Positions 6,318 to 13,200 are shown, numbered from the stretch's first letter. The stretch: 64,000 nt of DNA from the human T2T-CHM13v2.0 reference genome, Homo sapiens (GCF_009914755.1 NC_060938.1); one strand, 5' to 3'. Notes: generated from the letters alone by a model not told the origin. Program-made: numbers and translations.

Positions 6318-6875
6318 AAAACGAAACAGTAGAGAACTTGGTTTCCCACTCCGTTTATCTTTCTGCCTCCCCTCTTTTTCCTTTCCTTCCTATCGTTCCA
6401 CCTCTTTGTCTCTCTGATCCTTCTTCCTCTCCTTGTATCTCTTCTTGTATTTCTTTATCTTTCACCTCTATATTCTATTATCTTGGCCACTGTCACCAAC
6501 CACCATCACCACCCACTAGTGGGCATCAACTTGGAACCTTATAACTTGCTGTTTCATTCCTTGGTTAACTCCACTCTTCAACAAAGAACATTTGTCACAT
6601 TCACTCACACTATGCTGAGGAAAAGCAGCCCATTTTCAGGGAAAACTTGACTGTTACCAGAACAGAACAAGATCATTGGTTCAAATGGGTTAGATATATG
6701 ATATGTAGCTTGATAATAGCAAAAGTCAACACTGTTGGAGTGCAGTGGTGCAATAATATACATATGGCAAATGGTACATATTTAAAACGTGCAGTTTGGT
6801 AAGTCTTGACTTACATTATGCCATGTACCATGATCAAGACAATGAACATATCCATCACCTCCAAAAGTTTTTTCA

Positions 6876-7209
6876 GGCCAGGCATGGTGGCTTATGCCTG
6901 TAATCCCAACACATTGGGAGGCTGAGGTGGGCAGATCACTTGAGGCCAGGAGTTCAAGACTAGCCTGGCCAACAAGGTGAAACACCATCTCTACTAAAAA
7001 TACCAACATCAGCCAGGCATGGTGGCACACACTTGTAATCCCAGCTACACGGGAGGCTGAGGCAGGATAATCGCTTAACCCGGAAGGTGGAGGTTGCAGT
7101 GAGCCTAGATTTTGCCACTGCAGTCCAGCCTGGGCAACAGGATGAGACTTTGTCTCAAAAAAAAAAAAAAAAAAAAAAAAAAAAAAAAAAAAAGCAAACA
7201 AAAAAACAA
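6876..7209 (+). mobile_element. AluS(z-like), full length; putative donor of the inverted copy at 9745-10255
   Basis: Alu dimer with long A tail; TSD ccaaaa(g/c)ttttttca at 6861-6875 and 7210-7224. Confidence 0.95.
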
Positions 7210-8404
7210 CCAAAACTTTTTTCATACCCCTTTATAATCCTTCAGTTGGGTTACTCATCTCCCTGTCCCCAGATGACTACTGACCTGCTTTCTGTCACTA
7301 TAGATCAGCTTGCACTTTCTAGAATTTTCTTTAAGTGGATTCATACAGTATATACTTCTTTTGCCTTCTTTCACTTGTAATAATTATATTGCGATTAATC
7401 CATGTTATTGCATGTAGCAGTGGACAATTACTTTTTATTTCAGAGTAGTAGTCCATTGTATGAATATACCACATTTTCCTTATTCATTTATCAGTTATTT
7501 GACATCTAGGGAGTTTCCAGTTTGGGGCTTTTACAGATAAATCTGCTATGAAGAGTCATGAAGATGTCTTTGTGTACATATATGTTTTCATGTATGTTGG
7601 GCAAATACCTAGGAGTAGAATGTCTGGGCCATGTGACAGATGTATATTTACCTTTAAAAAAATTGTTTTCCAAACCATTTTCCAAAGCTGTTGTGCTCTG
7701 TTACATCCAGTATATGAACAGTGTATGAGCATTCCCAGTTCCCCCACATCTTTGTCAACACTTGGCATAGTCAATCTTTAATATTAATTATTCTAAGAGT
7801 TGTGTACTGGTATCTTGTTGTGGTTTTAAATAGCATTTTCCTGTTTGCTAATGACATTAAGCATCTTTTCATGTACTTATTTGCTGTCCATATGTCTGCT
7901 TGGTGAAGTATCTGTTAAAATTATTTGCCCATTTTTTATTGGGTTGGGTTTTTTCCTGATTACTGAAGTTTGAGATACAAGTCCTTTATCAGGTATGTGA
8001 TTTGCAAAGATTTTTCTCTGTGGTTTGTCTTTGGAATTTTTAATTTTGATGAAGTACCATTTACCAATTTTTTTCTTTTATGAATCATGCTTTTGATGTT
8101 GTATTTTAAAAAATCTTTGCCTAGCCCAAAAATAATAAAGAGTTTTATTTGTGTTTTATTCTAAGTGTTATCTATGTTTTCACTTGTGTGTTAGTTTACA
8201 TCTGTGATCTATTTTGAGTTAACTTTTGTATATGGTGTGAGGTGTGGATTGAGGTACCTTTTTTGTATATGGATAGTCAGTTATTCCAGCATCATTGTTA
8301 AAAATACTATACTTTCTCCGTCAAATTGCCTTTGCACTTTTGTCAAAAATCAAATAACTATACAATTCTATTTCTGACTTCTTGATTCTGTCCCATTGAT
8401 CTCT

Positions 8405-9112: not shown

Positions 9113-9744
9113 AGAGCACAATGATTTGAGACTTTTCTTTTCTAATATAAGTGATTAGTGCTATAAATTTTCCTCTAAGCACTGGTTTAGCTGCATCCAA
9201 CAATTTGGCATGTTGTGTTCTCATTTTTATTCAGTTCAAAATACTTTCTAACTTCTCTTTTGCTTTCTTTCTGGCATTGATTATTTAGAACTATATTGTT
9301 TTACTTCCAAATATTTAAAGATTTCCAGAGATTTTTCTGTTATGGATTTGTAGTTCTAATGTATCAGAGAATATACTTTATATAATTTGATTCATTTTAA
9401 ATTATTGAGACTTGCTTTATGGCCCAGAATATTGTGTATCTTCATAAATGCTCTGTGTGCACTAGAAAAGAATGTGTCTTCTGCTGTTGTTGCTTGGAGT
9501 TTCCTAAGTAAGTTAGTTCAAAGTTTTTGATTGTATTGCTCAAGTCTTCTATGTCCTTCTTGTTATGTCTGTCAACTTATTCTATCAATTATTGAGAAAG
9601 GGGTATTGAAATATCTCTGAATGTGGATTTATTTTTGCTTAATGTATTATGAAGCTCTGTTATTAGGCTTATGTCTTTAGGATTGCTATATTTTCCTAAT
9701 GAATTGAAATTATAAAATGTCCCTCTTCATCTTTGGTAATATTT

Positions 9745-10255
9745 TTAGTTTAGTTTAGGTTTTTTTTTTTTTTTTTTTTTTTTTTTTTTTTTTTGAGATC
9801 AGGTCTTGCTCTGTCACCCAGACTGGAGTGCAGTGGTGCGATCTTGGCTCGCCACCACCTCTGCCTCCCGGGTTCAAGCAATTCTCGTGCTTTAGTCTCC
9901 TGAGTAGCTGGGACCACAGGTGCCCACCGCCATGCCCAGCTAATTTTTGTATTTTTAGTAGAGACGGGGTTTCACCGTGTTGGCCAGGCTGGTCTTGAAC
10001 TCCTGACCTCAAGGGATCTGCCCACCTTGGCCTCCCAAAGTGCTGGGATGACAGACATAAGCCACCGTGCTCAGGCTGAAAAAACTTGGAGGTGATGGAT
10101 ATGTTCGTTATCTTGATTGTGGTGCATGGCATAATGTAAGTCAAGACTTATCAAACTGGGTGTTTTAAATATGTACCATTTACTATATATGTATTATTGC
10201 ACCACTGCACTTGAACAGTGTTGACTTTTGCTATATCAAATTACTAAATATTACC
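9745..10255 (-). mobile_element. Inserted unit: poly(A) + AluS + ~170 bp copy of the 5' flank of the Alu at 6876
   Basis: Reverse complement of 10077-10240 matches 6710-6875; the unit is bounded by the 17-bp direct repeat catctttggtaatattt (9728-9744 and 10256-10272). Confidence 0.9.
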
Positions 10256-13200
10256 CATCTTTGGTAATATTTACTAATAAAACAGTCCAGCTTTCTTTTG
10301 ACTAATGATAGGATGGTACATATTTTTTCATCTTTTTACTTTTAACCTATCTATGTTTTTGTATTTAAACTGCATTTCTTATAAGCAGCATAAAGTTGGA
10401 TGTTGCTTTTAAAAAAATGCAATCTGACAGTCTCTTCCTTTTGATTGAGGTTTTTAGATCATTTTCATTTAATGTGTTTTGTGATATTGTTGGGTTTAAA
10501 TCTATTATCTTACTGCTTGTTTTCTATATTTCACATCTGTTCTTTGTCTTCTGTCCTCTCTTTTTGTGCCTTCTTTTGGATTAAGGTTTTTATGATTAAA
10601 TTTTGGATATAATTTCCTTTTCTTTGTCTAATTAAGATAAACTGAGATGGCAACTAAGATAATTAACTTAAGAACTTCCTTCTTTTCAAACATCAGCATT
10701 TAGTGCTCTAAATTTCCTTTCAATACTGTTTTAGCTGCTTTCCCCCAGATTTTGAGAGATTCTCATTTCCATTCAGATCAAAATGTTAATTTCCAGTTTG
10801 GTTTCTTCTTTGCCCCTTAAGTTGTTTAGAAGTGTGTTTTTTAATTATCTTTTAGCTGTATGTCTTTGTTGTTGTGTTAGTGGTTGATTCAGAGTTTATA
10901 GTATATATTTTTAATCACAGTCTGCCTTCAAGGAATATTATACCACCTCATATATTGTATAAGAACTGTACAATAATATACCTCCATTTCCCACCTCCTG
11001 ACTTTTTGCTATTATTGTCATACATTTTCTATATATTTTATAAAGCAAATCATACATTATTATTTTTGCTTTAAACAGTTGACTATCTCTTAAAGAGATT
11101 TTAAACAAGTTTTATGTTCAGTTATATTTGCTATAATTGCCATATTTATATTTGCCATTTTAATGCTCTTCATTTCATTCTATAGATCTAAACATTCATC
11201 TTTCATCTTTCCTTCTGCCCAAAGGATTTTCTGTAAAGTCTCCTGTGCAGGTCAGCTGGTGATTAATTGTTTTAGGTTTTGTATGTTTTAGAAGCTTTAT
11301 TTTGCTTTCAATTTTGAGAGACAGTTTCACTGGGTATTGAATTCTAGATGGATGGTTTCGGAGGTTTTTTTTTTTTTTCAATACTTTAAAGATATTGCTC
11401 CTCCATTGTCTTTTTGCTTATATTGTTTCCAACAAGAAATCTGTCATTCTTATCTTTTTTGTCTGTATGTGATATGTCTTTTTTCCTCTGTTGTCTTTGC
11501 CACTATGGTTAAGCAATTTGATGATGCTATGCCTTGGTAGAGTTTTCTTCATATTTCTGGTGCTTGGGTTTGGTGAGCTTCTTGAATCTCTGGATTTATA
11601 GTTTTCATTAGATTTGGAAAAATATCAGCCATTGTTTCTTCAAATATTTTATTCAGTGCCTCTACTCAACATGCCCAATCTTTCTTCTACCTTCTTGACC
11701 ATATTGAATATAGGTATCATAACTGTTTTAATGTCCTTGTCTGTTAGTTCTGTTATCTGTGTCATTTTTGTTTTATTTTCTGTTAATGGATTTTTCTCCT
11801 CATTCGTGTGTTTCTTTTGTTGTTGTTGTTTCTTAGCATGCCTGGTAATTTTTTATTGTATTCTTGACATTGTTAATTTGACTTTCTTGGGTGATGGATA
11901 TTTTTATATTCATATAAAATATTCTTAAGCTGTATTCTGTGACATAGTTACATAACTTACAAATATCTTTATCCTTCTGAGGCTAACATTTAAGCTTTGT
12001 TAGGTATTGATCAGAGCAGCAATTTTTGTAGGGCACGTAGTTCTTCACTGCTGCTGCTGTATACCACTATCCTTATCAGTACTCTCATGATGTTCTATGA
12101 GTTATAAGATTTTTCCACTCTGACTAATAGGAACACAAAATATTCTTGGCCCTATATAATCACCAGGGGATTTTTTTCCTTCTAAGATTTTCGGGTCATT
12201 TTTTCTCCAGTGTTGGGTAGTTTTTATAACTTGCATGTACTGGTCAGCACTCAGCTGAAGACTCAGGGGGATCCCTTTTCAGATCTTTGGAGTTGTCTCT
12301 CTCTCTGTAGATCTCTCCTGTCCAGTACTCTACCTTGAAAACTGTAGTCACTTTGACCTCCCAGGGCTCCTGGCTACCTCTCCTCACTCAGGAAGACTGC
12401 CAGGCTCCACCTGCATTCCTGCTGCCAGTGCTACTGCCTGAAAACTCTCTCTAGGCAGTGAGCTGGAATACCTGCAGGACTCACCTGGTTTGTTTCCTTT
12501 CCCTCAGTGATCTCTGTCCTGCATTTCTTGATGCTCAATACCTGAAAAACATTGTTTTTTATAGTTTATCTGGATTTTTAGTTGTCCCAGGCAGGAGGGT
12601 AAATCTGGTCTTTGTTACTCCATCTTGGCTGAAAGAGAAAGTTTCATCACCAATTTTAATTTTGAGGGCTGGAATAAGCAGGATTGAAATGAGTACAGTC
12701 CAACCAGGCAGGAAGTCTTCCATTTGTTCTGTAGCATGAACCAAGATAAGAGGAAGGGTATCACTTTTATTCTTGTGAAAACCTATTTTTTAAATGTCCT
12801 TCAGTTTTCAGGATATTGTTTCTGAAGAGGGGGGAGAAAAAAAAGCCCAACCAACTTTACTCCATCATAACATTGCAGAGCCCAAAATAAATCACATCTA
12901 ATTCTTACTGACAGATTTGTAGGAACCACTAGCAAAAGAGAATGAAAATGAAAGTTATTCAATAAGTCAAATTAACATTTCTGAAATAGGGTGATGGCTG
13001 GGTTATATAATGTCATCAATAATGATGAGCTTTAACTGGATACATTTAGTCACGTGATTTGCAAATCACAAACCTGAAGGTCCCTTGCAGGTATATTTTA
13101 GAATCACATGGTCATAGATTACATCAATGGGGAAATAATAAAAACACTTTTAGACCAACATCACTATTCCCCTTGCTTGCTTCACATGGACGCTTAGCCA

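What the first reader, a model, noticed from the sequence alone, without database searches (positions are those of the whole stretch)
6710..10272. An Alu copied itself together with ~170 bp of its own 5' flank, inverted, only 2.5 kb away
Seen: the reverse complement of 10077-10240 matches 6710-6875 (for example gcaaaagtcaacactgtt...gtgcagtggtgcaataat and aagtcttgacttacattatgccatg), and in both copies the Alu starts at the same junction. The Alu at 6876 has its own TSD, so it is the original. The second unit (9745-10255) has a long poly(A) tail and a different 17-bp TSD, catctttggtaatattt. Both Alus share the non-consensus ggtggcttatg. Established: a poly(A) tail plus TSD is the signature of L1-mediated target-primed reverse transcription, and Pol III Alu RNA begins at the Alu 5' end, so it cannot carry upstream flank. 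Inference: the template was a Pol II RNA, most simply UNC79 intronic pre-mRNA (the donor Alu is sense to UNC79), primed on the internal A tract and reinserted into the same intron. This would be a local, cis retrotransposition of intron RNA with an identifiable parent and daughter.
Basis: partly seen in the sequence, partly recalled or inferred. Interest (0 to 1): 0.8.

Follow-up and report, generated by a model that had tools for sequence, protein, structure and literature searches.

The report
Alu retrocopied with its upstream flank
An old Alu repeat in a human UNC79 intron was copied together with about 170 bases of the DNA in front of it and pasted back, upside down, 2.5 kb away, which shows that the copying template came from this very spot and was not an ordinary Alu transcript.

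Summary
One continuous inverted match joins 6710-7203 to 10239-9749 (495 columns, 82.8%) and stops at a perfect 17-bp target-site duplication (9728-9744 / 10256-10272). The 170-nt flank is the antisense 3' end of an old L1. In the whole T2T genome the two flank copies are each other's best match by far: 87-89% identity against at most 79% for any other copy. The distal 45 nt is found nowhere else. Against 15 other family copies the two share 38 derived states. The parent Alu lies in situ with its own 15-bp duplication. The daughter has an A-rich tail, a TTT/A nick site and a clean empty site in paralogous L1 copies. It is therefore an L1-mediated retrocopy whose template carried the parent's upstream flank, including a T6 Pol III terminator. 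A single Pol II (UNC79 intron) RNA is the simplest template (about 0.55). A canonical Alu cDNA that switched into the parent within Alu homology cannot be excluded (about 0.3). This is a curious single ancient event, a variant of 5' transduction.

The parts
6705..6875 (+). Parent 5' flank that was co-copied. It is the antisense 3' end of an old L1, plus about 20 nt beyond the point where other family copies stop aligning.
   Evidence: The global alignment to the daughter gives 151 matches, 17 mismatches and 3 gap columns. Against 15 other family copies there are 38 shared-derived states. The stretch 6710-6765 is found only here and in the daughter genome-wide.
6868..6873 (+). T6 run inside the copied flank, just before the Alu. 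It would act as a Pol III terminator in the sense of the template RNA. The daughter retains it at 10079-10084 (as A6 on the + strand).
   Evidence: A scan for runs of four or more T in the RNA sense finds T6 in both copies. The family majority at this site has no T6, so it is a state shared by parent and daughter.
6861..6875 (+). Left target-site duplication of the parent Alu (CCAAAAGTTTTTTCA).
   Evidence: Read. It matches 7210-7224 at 14 of 15 positions.
6876..7156 (+). Parent Alu body, S-type, in the sense of UNC79.
   Evidence: Alignment to 161 other Alus; 19 of 233 non-CpG sites differ from their majority sequence.
7157..7209 (+). Parent A-rich tail: A37 (7157-7193) followed by a patterned A/C stretch.
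7210..7224 (+). Right target-site duplication of the parent Alu (CCAAAACTTTTTTCA). The L1 resumes at 7225.
   Evidence: Read. In 18 of 28 other family loci one alignment crosses the Alu-excised junction.
9728..9744 (+). Left target-site duplication of the daughter unit (CATCTTTGGTAATATTT). The first-strand nick lies after 9744, in the context TTT/A.
   Evidence: A 17 of 17 direct repeat with spacing 528 (D17). The nick context is read.
9745..9794 (-). Daughter A-rich tail: A35 (9760-9794 as T on the + strand) plus 15 nt of patterned tail (9745-9759).
   Evidence: The HSP with the parent tail reaches 9749.
9795..10076 (-). Daughter Alu body.
   Evidence: 20 of 234 non-CpG sites differ from the majority sequence.
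10077..10244 (-). Daughter copy of the parent 5' flank.
   Evidence: The parent is its best genome-wide match: 89% over 164 nt, 214 bits, against 81.5 bits for the next hit.
10245..10255 (-). 11 nt at the 5' junction of the daughter with no parent counterpart. They are an exact inverted copy of 10263-10273, the adjacent target. The match is 15 of 16 if extended to 10240-10255 against 10263-10278.
   Evidence: Read and from the 5' end of the alignment.
10256..10272 (+). Right target-site duplication of the daughter unit.
   Evidence: D17.
11199..11417 (-). Remnant of L1 ORF1 (dsRBD-like domain). It shows that the host repeat is an L1 on the minus strand, running from its 3' end near 6725 past both Alus.
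   Evidence: Pfam Tnp_22_dsRBD, E 8.1e-5, 23.0 bits against a cut-off of 22.2. It was the only hit above cut-off among 19 open pieces tested.

Best explanation
The unit 9745-10255 (minus strand) is an L1 ORF2p target-primed reverse-transcription insertion. Its template carried, in one piece, about 170 nt of the DNA upstream of the Alu at 6876, then that Alu and an A-rich tail.

The likely order of events:
1. An S-type Alu inserted into the antisense 3' end of an old L1 in the UNC79 intron between the exons at 5601-5678 and 15915-15956.
2. Not long afterwards, while its A tail was long, an RNA reading through flank, Alu and tail in the sense of UNC79 was used by ORF2p. This RNA was made by Pol II, not from the Alu's own Pol III promoter. 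It was most simply UNC79 pre-mRNA or excised intron RNA.
3. The T-rich nicked end at 9744 (TTT/A) annealed to the A tract.
4. Reverse transcription ran through the Alu and about 170 nt further, then stopped (5' truncation).
5. The cDNA was joined with a 17-bp target-site duplication, in inverse orientation, 2,520 bp downstream in the same intron and the same L1.

Shown: the duplication, its direction, its boundaries and the retrotransposition hallmarks. Inferred: the polymerase, the identity of the transcript, priming on the internal A tract, and any causal link between nearness and mechanism.
For: - The homology is one block that ends exactly at the duplicated 17-mers.
- The daughter has an A35 tail next to one 17-mer, and the nick context is TTT/A.
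- The empty site is intact L1. In 4 of 8 paralogous L1 copies one alignment crosses the reconstructed site, and in the other 4 the two sides are collinear.
- The flank comes from this locus. The two copies are reciprocal best hits genome-wide by a wide margin. The stretch 6710-6765 is unique to the pair. Among 155 columns with a clear family majority there are 38 shared-derived states against 11 parent-only, 9 daughter-only and 5 where both differ.
- The parent is the original. It has its own 15-bp duplication, and the L1 is contiguous once the Alu is removed.
- Pol III from the Alu promoter starts at the Alu's first base. This is stated in PMC4859970 (passages read).
- The copied flank holds T6 in both copies. 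Four or more T is the Pol III termination signal (PMC3141230, abstract in the search listing).
- The parent Alu is sense to UNC79 (annotation supplied with the task).
- Pol II-driven Alu RNA can retrotranspose in culture, though at about 1/500 of the Pol III rate and only with ORF1p. The authors themselves guarded against internal priming on the Alu A tail (PMC2666806, passages read).
- Intron-derived RNAs are known L1 substrates, as in the snoRNA retroposons that carry intron sequence (PMC1687206, passages read).
Against: - The two Alu bodies carry no significant excess of shared private states (9 against 6.4 +/- 2.9). They are as different as random Alus of the same age (62 against 59.4 +/- 8.1 mismatches).
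- Nothing therefore proves that the daughter's Alu, as opposed to its flank, came from the parent.
- Non-CpG divergence between the two Alus (34 of 233) is somewhat higher than between the two flanks (17 of 168). The difference is not significant (Fisher p = 0.22).
- Mismatches are weakly concentrated in the Alu half far from the flank: right minus left is 18 against 4.9 +/- 7.5, reached by 5.2% of random pairs.
- Pol II Alu RNA is a poor substrate in culture (PMC2666806).
- Landing within 3 kb of the source by chance has odds of about 2 in a million. The model therefore needs an unproven local bias, such as nascent RNA at its gene.
- I did not check whether UNC79 is transcribed in the germline.
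Confidence: 0.55

Rival explanations
1. Hybrid event. An ordinary Pol III Alu RNA from any active source was reverse-transcribed at 9744. The 3' end of the cDNA, complementary to the Alu 5' end, then paired with the parent Alu. The partner was either the parent's DNA 2.5 kb away (strand invasion with synthesis and release) or a parent-containing pre-mRNA (homology-guided template switch). Synthesis continued about 170 nt into the parent's upstream flank before the end was joined to the target.
For: - The two Alu bodies are no closer than random pairs.
- There is a weak trend to more mismatches in the Alu half far from the flank.
- The only clear non-CpG state the two Alus share lies 18 nt from the junction.
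- Invasion of nearby homologous DNA would explain the 2.5-kb distance without any special RNA biology.
- Old Alus duplicated together with adjacent non-Alu sequence have been reported and ascribed to template switching or templated break repair (PMC4666360, passages read).
- Remodelling of L1-induced break ends is documented (10.1101/2024.12.14.628481, passages read).
Against: - It needs two rare steps and a clean release that still leaves a perfect 17-bp duplication.
- Closer Alus (8406-8721 and 8906-9120) lie between target and parent, though whether they were there at the time is unknown.
- The trend is not significant. If the parent Alu was young when copied, this model and the single-template model predict the same Alu data.
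Confidence: 0.3
2. Purely DNA-level inverted duplication, by replication template switching or templated double-strand-break repair, with no RNA intermediate.
For: The copy is local and inverted, as such events often are. A short inverted copy of the target (10245-10255) lies at one junction.
Against: - One boundary of the copied block coincides with the end of the Alu's A-rich tail.
- The block is flanked by a perfect 17-bp direct duplication.
- The nick site reads TTT/A.
- All three are the hallmarks of L1-mediated insertion. They are not expected together from template switching.
Confidence: 0.05
3. Pol III read-through. A transcript started at a cryptic Pol III promoter upstream of 6705, ran through the flank and the Alu, ended at the T6 after the tail (7217-7222), and was retrotransposed like a SINE.
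For: A T6 follows the parent tail directly.
Against: A T6 at 6868-6873 lies inside the copied flank and is shared by both copies, so it was there at the time of copying. Pol III would mostly stop before entering the Alu. No tRNA-like or SINE promoter was seen upstream; I inspected by eye only and ran no scan.
Confidence: 0.03
4. The two units are not parent and daughter. Both descend from a third locus, or the daughter comes from another L1 copy that happened to receive an Alu at the same site.
For: The site is a recurrent Alu target. At chr10 locus L012 an unrelated, older-looking Alu lies 1 nt from the same position of another copy of this L1 3' end.
Against: - No third locus comes near. The next best hits are 75-79% identical over about 100 nt, against 87-89% over 164-191 nt for the pair.
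- 45 nt of the flank is unique to the pair.
- The genome search scores only the best candidates (40 of 74 and 40 of 86), so this is strong but not exhaustive.
Confidence: 0.03

Closest known systems
5' transduction by L1 and SVA elements
   Same: Sequence directly upstream of a source retroelement is carried into the new copy because transcription began upstream. The new copy has a poly(A) tail and a target-site duplication (PMC4859970 and 10.1101/2024.04.18.590093, passages read).
   Different: Here the element is an Alu, which is normally transcribed by Pol III from its own first base. The papers I read describe 5' transductions for SVA and a handful for L1, and none for Alu. The copy also landed 2.5 kb from its source.
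Retrocopies of intron-derived RNA (type 2 and type 3 snoRNA retroposons)
   Same: They are L1-type insertions with an A-rich tail and a 7-19-bp duplication, and their template was unspliced or intron-derived Pol II RNA (PMC1687206, passages read).
   Different: Those start at the protected 5' end of a snoRNA and acquire a new A tail. Here the 5' end is arbitrary, and the A tract is the Alu's own encoded tail.
Internal priming of L1/Alu reverse transcription
   Same: The T-rich target end anneals to an A-rich tract that is not the 3' end of the RNA (defined in PMC4859970; used to explain an AluS insertion in PMC5402677; passages read).
   Different: In the published cases the tract lies inside the retroelement and the outcome is a 3'-truncated or tail-less element. 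Here the tract would lie inside a long host transcript, and the outcome looks like a complete Alu with extra 5' sequence.
Polymorphic old AluS/AluJ insertions with adjacent non-Alu sequence that maps elsewhere (Wildschutte et al. 2015)
   Same: An old Alu and its neighbouring unique sequence occur at two places in the genome (PMC4666360, passages read).
   Different: Those authors proposed non-TPRT routes, namely template switching or templated break repair. The unit here has the full TPRT signature.
Pol II-driven Alu retrotransposition in cell culture (Kroutter et al. 2009)
   Same: An Alu embedded in a Pol II transcript can be mobilised by L1 proteins (PMC2666806, passages read).
   Different: That was an engineered construct with a polyadenylation signal, very inefficient and dependent on ORF1p. 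Here it is a natural germline event that ends at the Alu's own tail.

Membership tests
L1 ORF2p-mediated (TPRT) insertion | Target-site duplication flanking the whole insert | tested here: met
   17 of 17 direct repeat at 9728-9744 and 10256-10272. The homology to the parent ends at these repeats.
L1 ORF2p-mediated (TPRT) insertion | A-rich tail at the 3' end of the insert, next to one copy of the duplication | tested here: met
   A35 plus 15 nt of patterned A-rich sequence at 9745-9794 on the minus strand.
L1 ORF2p-mediated (TPRT) insertion | Endonuclease nick site resembling TTTT/A on the priming strand (consensus recalled, not from a call) | tested here: met
   The priming strand reads ...ATATTT / AC at the inferred nick after 9744. 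That is three T then A, a common degenerate form.
L1 ORF2p-mediated (TPRT) insertion | Clean empty site: the target is uninterrupted without the insert | tested here: met
   Tested by proxy only. In 4 of 8 paralogous L1 copies one alignment crosses the reconstructed site, and in 4 of 8 the two sides are collinear. Orthologous primate loci could not be examined.
Canonical Alu insertion from a Pol III transcript | The insert begins at the Alu's first base | tested here: not met
   168 nt of the parent's upstream flank plus 11 further nt precede the Alu inside the duplication.
Canonical Alu insertion from a Pol III transcript | No run of four or more T inside the transcribed unit | tested here: not met
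   T6 lies in the copied flank of both copies.
5' transduction | The extra 5' sequence is contiguous with the source element at an identifiable source locus | tested here: met
   The junction is identical in both copies. The two are reciprocal best hits genome-wide, and a 45-nt stretch is unique to the pair.
5' transduction | The whole new copy, element included, derives from that source element | tested here: inconclusive
   The Alu bodies share 9 non-consensus states against a null of 6.4 +/- 2.9, and their mismatches are 62 against 59.4 +/- 8.1. This fits a very young source Alu or a different Alu RNA equally well.
5' transduction | Transcription from an upstream (Pol II) promoter through the element | not testable with these tools
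   Only orientation supports it: the parent is sense to UNC79 according to the supplied annotation. No expression data are on hand.
Segmental or inverted DNA duplication | Boundaries unrelated to retroelement ends, with no poly(A) and no long target-site duplication | tested here: not met
   One boundary is the end of the Alu tail, and a 17-bp duplication is present.

The most novel reading that the evidence does not exclude
L1 ORF2p seized nascent or freshly excised UNC79 intron RNA at its site of synthesis, using the long A tail of a newly inserted Alu as a landing pad. It then integrated the cDNA a few kilobases away in the same intron. If this is general, young Alus in transcribed introns would seed a class of short-range retro-duplications of intron sequence. 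Reverse transcription of host RNA by L1 would then have a local, co-transcriptional mode.
Probability: 0.25. Interest if true: 0.7.

Novelty: new variant of a known kind. Interest (0 to 1): 0.5.

Why it matters
Alu copies are thought to come almost only from Pol III transcripts that start at the Alu's first base. A natural copy with full retrotransposition hallmarks and 170 nt of upstream flank, including a Pol III stop signal, shows that another template route was used at least once in the primate germline.

Because parent and daughter are both identifiable and lie 2.5 kb apart, the case poses a testable question. Does L1 machinery sometimes act on RNA, or on homologous DNA, close to the integration site?

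It is a single event of perhaps 25-55 million years' age. This is a rough inference from a flank distance of 0.109 and recalled neutral substitution rates. No function is implied. Its value is as a lead for a genome-wide survey.

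Tried and rejected
- Alu-level test of parentage: shared non-consensus states, total mismatch and mismatch gradient, compared with 27 and then 161 other Alus. None was significant, so the test cannot separate the single-template model from the hybrid model.
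- The shared GGTGGCTTATG motif: it reduces to one non-CpG change present in 7% of other Alus plus one CpG decay present in 41%.
- Same junction taken alone as proof of common descent: weakened by L012, where an independent Alu lies 1 nt from the same L1 position.
Of 19 open pieces, one gave an L1 ORF1 hit and no ORF2 domain was recovered.
- Extending parent/daughter homology left of 6705: the alignment pairs 6685-6704 with the daughter's last bases only through several gaps. Those 11 bases are better explained as an inverted copy of the neighbouring target.
- Literature: these searches returned no paper describing an Alu 5' transduction with TPRT hallmarks, a retrocopy landing within a few kb of its source, or this locus. 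The searches were keyword-based over an open-access library, so absence is weak evidence.

Full report
**What is there**

- An Alu on the + strand occupies 6876-7156.
- Its tail is A37 (7157-7193) followed by a short patterned A/C stretch to 7209.
- It is flanked by a 15-nt duplication, 6861-6875 and 7210-7224, with one mismatch.
- A second unit, on the minus strand, occupies 9745-10255 between two perfect copies of CATCTTTGGTAATATTT (9728-9744 and 10256-10272, family D17).
- In the sense of its Alu, that unit reads: 11 nt with no parent counterpart (10255-10245), 168 nt matching the parent's upstream flank (10244-10077), an Alu (10076-9795), A35 (9794-9760) and 15 nt of patterned A-rich tail (9759-9745).
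- Local blastn joins the two units in one alignment, 6710-7203 against 10239-9749 (495 columns, 82.8%, E 1.5e-143).
- Apart from Alu-to-Alu matches, nothing else aligns between 5700-8300 and 8800-11500. The duplicated block is therefore exactly the piece between the 17-mers.
- The flank/Alu junction is the same in both copies.

**What the flank is**

The flank is a repeat, so similarity alone could be trivial. I tested this in four ways.
- Parent flank against the whole genome (6700-6900, T2T assembly): 40 matches scored of 74 candidates. After the query itself, the daughter scores 231 bits (87% over 191 nt). The next hit scores 80.6 bits (75% over 118 nt).
- Reciprocal search with 10070-10300: the parent scores 214 bits (89% over 164 nt). 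The next hit scores 81.5 bits (79% over 98 nt), with 40 of 86 candidates scored.
- Distal part, 6686-6765: only two matches at E up to 10, itself and the daughter.
- Alignment to 15 other family copies. Of 182 columns, 27 have no clear family majority. Of the remaining 155, parent and daughter both agree with the majority at 92, share a departure from it at 38, the parent alone differs at 11, the daughter alone at 9, and both differ in different ways at 5.

The two flanks therefore share a long private history and then diverged by about 10%: 17 mismatches in 168 aligned bases, Jukes-Cantor distance 0.109.

From recall I recognise the family as the antisense 3' end of an old L1. A tool result agrees. 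An open piece at 11199-11417 on the minus strand matches the L1 ORF1 dsRBD-like domain (Pfam Tnp_22_dsRBD, E 8.1e-5, 23.0 bits against a cut-off of 22.2). It was the only hit above cut-off among 19 pieces tested.

**Direction of copying**

- With the parent Alu and one copy of its duplication cut out, 18 of 28 other family loci align in one piece across the junction. The parent Alu therefore inserted in situ into an existing L1.
- The daughter's flank is a truncated fragment enclosed, together with an Alu and a tail, by a single duplication.
- For the daughter's target I rebuilt the empty site in a script and compared it with eight paralogous L1 copies. In four, one alignment crosses the site. 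In the other four, the two sides are collinear with small gaps.
- The daughter is thus a clean insertion into the body of an L1 on the minus strand, most likely the same element that holds the parent.

**How it was made**

The 17-bp duplication, the A-rich tail next to one copy of it, and the nick context TTT/A on the priming strand are the signature of L1 ORF2p target-primed reverse transcription.

The template cannot have been a normal Alu transcript.
- Pol III starts at the Alu's first base (PMC4859970, passages read).
- The copied flank contains T6 at 6868-6873, retained in the daughter.
- This T6 is a state shared by the pair against the family majority, so it was there at the time of copying.
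- Four or more T is the Pol III stop signal (PMC3141230, abstract seen in a search listing).

The simplest template is one Pol II RNA that reads through flank, Alu and tail.
- The parent is sense to UNC79, and both units lie in the intron between the exons at 5601-5678 and 15915-15956 (supplied annotation).
- The nicked T-rich end would have annealed to the Alu's A tract inside that RNA. This is internal priming as defined in PMC4859970.
- Reverse transcription would have stopped about 170 nt beyond the Alu.
- Pol II-driven Alu RNA does retrotranspose in culture, at about 1/500 of the Pol III rate and only with ORF1p. Its authors removed the Alu tail from their construct to avoid just such internal priming (PMC2666806, passages read).
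- Intron-derived RNA is a known L1 substrate, as in the snoRNA retroposons (PMC1687206, passages read).

**What the Alus say**

- Comparators: 161 other full-length Alus from the window and from fetched loci.
- Shared states: parent and daughter share 9 non-majority states, 7 at CpG sites and 2 elsewhere.
- Null: among 116 comparators of similar divergence, random pairs share 6.4 +/- 2.9, and 21.6% share 9 or more. For non-CpG sites the observed value is 2 against a mean of 1.5.
- The shared GGTGGCTTATG is one non-CpG change found in 7% of other Alus plus one CpG decay found in 41%.
- Total mismatch between the two Alus is 62 of 282 columns, against 59.4 +/- 8.1 for 2,926 random pairs among 77 comparators.
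- At non-CpG sites the two differ at 34 of 233. Each differs from the majority sequence at 19-20.
- The Alu-to-Alu distance is somewhat above the flank distance, but not significantly (Fisher p = 0.22).
- Mismatches lean towards the half far from the flank: right minus left is 18 against 4.9 +/- 7.5, reached by 5.2% of random pairs.

The Alu bodies therefore give no evidence of parentage. This is what one expects if the Alu was copied soon after it inserted, before it had private changes. That also makes sense mechanistically, since a long pure A tail is what makes an RNA usable and such tails decay. But it equally fits a rival in which only the flank comes from the parent.

**Rivals**

- Hybrid event (about 0.3). 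A normal Alu cDNA made at 9744 paired through its Alu end with the parent Alu, either in DNA 2.5 kb away or in pre-mRNA, and was extended into the parent's flank. This explains the nearness without new RNA biology. Old Alus duplicated with neighbouring sequence have been ascribed to template switching (PMC4666360, passages read). It needs two rare steps and still a perfect duplication.
- DNA-only inverted duplication (0.05). It does not explain why the block ends at the Alu tail with a 17-bp duplication.
- Pol III read-through from upstream (0.03). It is contradicted by the internal T6.
- A third source locus (0.03). It is contradicted by the genome searches, although those score only the best candidates. 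The site is a recurrent Alu target: at L012 an unrelated Alu lies 1 nt from the same L1 position.

**The nearness**

- The insertion point is 2,520 bp from the end of the parent unit.
- Under random integration the odds of landing within 3 kb are about 2 in a million (my arithmetic: 6 kb over 3.1 Gb).
- Finding the pair was favoured by both lying in one window, but chance still seems unlikely.
- Either model needs a local bias: nascent or intron RNA near its gene, or a homology search in nearby DNA. Neither is shown here.

**A detail at the 5' junction**

- The 11 nt at 10245-10255 are an exact inverted copy of 10263-10273, the adjacent target. The match is 15 of 16 over 10240-10255 against 10263-10278.
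- Short inverted duplications beside L1 insertions have been ascribed to self-annealing of the break end before ligation (10.1101/2024.12.14.628481, passages read).
- I did not resolve the exact steps.

**Comparison with what is known, and novelty**

The event works like a 5' transduction and like an intron-derived retrocopy primed on an internal A tract. It is not a canonical Alu insertion, because two defining features were tested and not met.

In five keyword searches of the open-access library I found none of the following:
- an Alu 5' transduction with TPRT hallmarks;
- a retrocopy landing within a few kilobases of its source;
- this locus.

The population-scale long-read study I consulted reports 5' transductions for L1 and SVA only in the passages I read (10.1101/2024.04.18.590093). 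Supplementary tables of these papers were not examined and may list such cases.

I rate it a new variant of a known kind, with interest 0.5. It is well documented and mechanistically suggestive, but it is a single ancient event without functional implication.

**Confidence by step**

- Real duplication, with direction parent to daughter: about 0.95.
- Made by target-primed reverse transcription: about 0.9.
- One Pol II RNA as the whole template: about 0.55.
- That RNA being UNC79 pre-mRNA or intron RNA: about 0.4.

Noticed in passing
L012:1236-1620 (chr10 of the same assembly): Another copy of the same L1 3' end carries an unrelated, older-looking Alu inserted 1 nt from the position of the parent Alu, with its own duplication. 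This L1 site seems to be a recurrent Alu target.
   Followed up: partly
window 10240-10278: There is a near-palindrome at the daughter's 5' junction. The insert's last 11 nt (10245-10255) are an exact inverted copy of the adjacent target (10263-10273), separated by the first 7 nt of the duplication. It may be a trace of break-end self-annealing during integration.
   Followed up: partly
window 7157-7193 and 9760-9794: Both units still have very long uninterrupted homopolymer tails (A37 and A35), although their bodies are about 8% diverged at non-CpG sites. That is unusually long for Alus of this age.
   Followed up: no
window 9850-9875 (minus strand, daughter Alu right monomer): Four substitutions cluster within 8 nt relative to the parent and to the majority of other Alus. 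This could be a clustered mutation or a short conversion tract.
   Followed up: no
window 8406-8721, 8906-9120 and 5905-6049: Further Alu material lies in and near the same L1: a full Alu on the minus strand, a truncated Alu on the + strand at what looks like a jump in the L1 sequence, and a partial Alu-like piece upstream.
   Followed up: no
window 9166-9242 and 10710-10784: Two direct-repeat stretches of 25-29 nt, 79-88% alike, lie about 1.5 kb apart inside the L1 body (families D8 and D9). They may reflect an internal L1 duplication or two overlapping L1 fragments.
   Followed up: no
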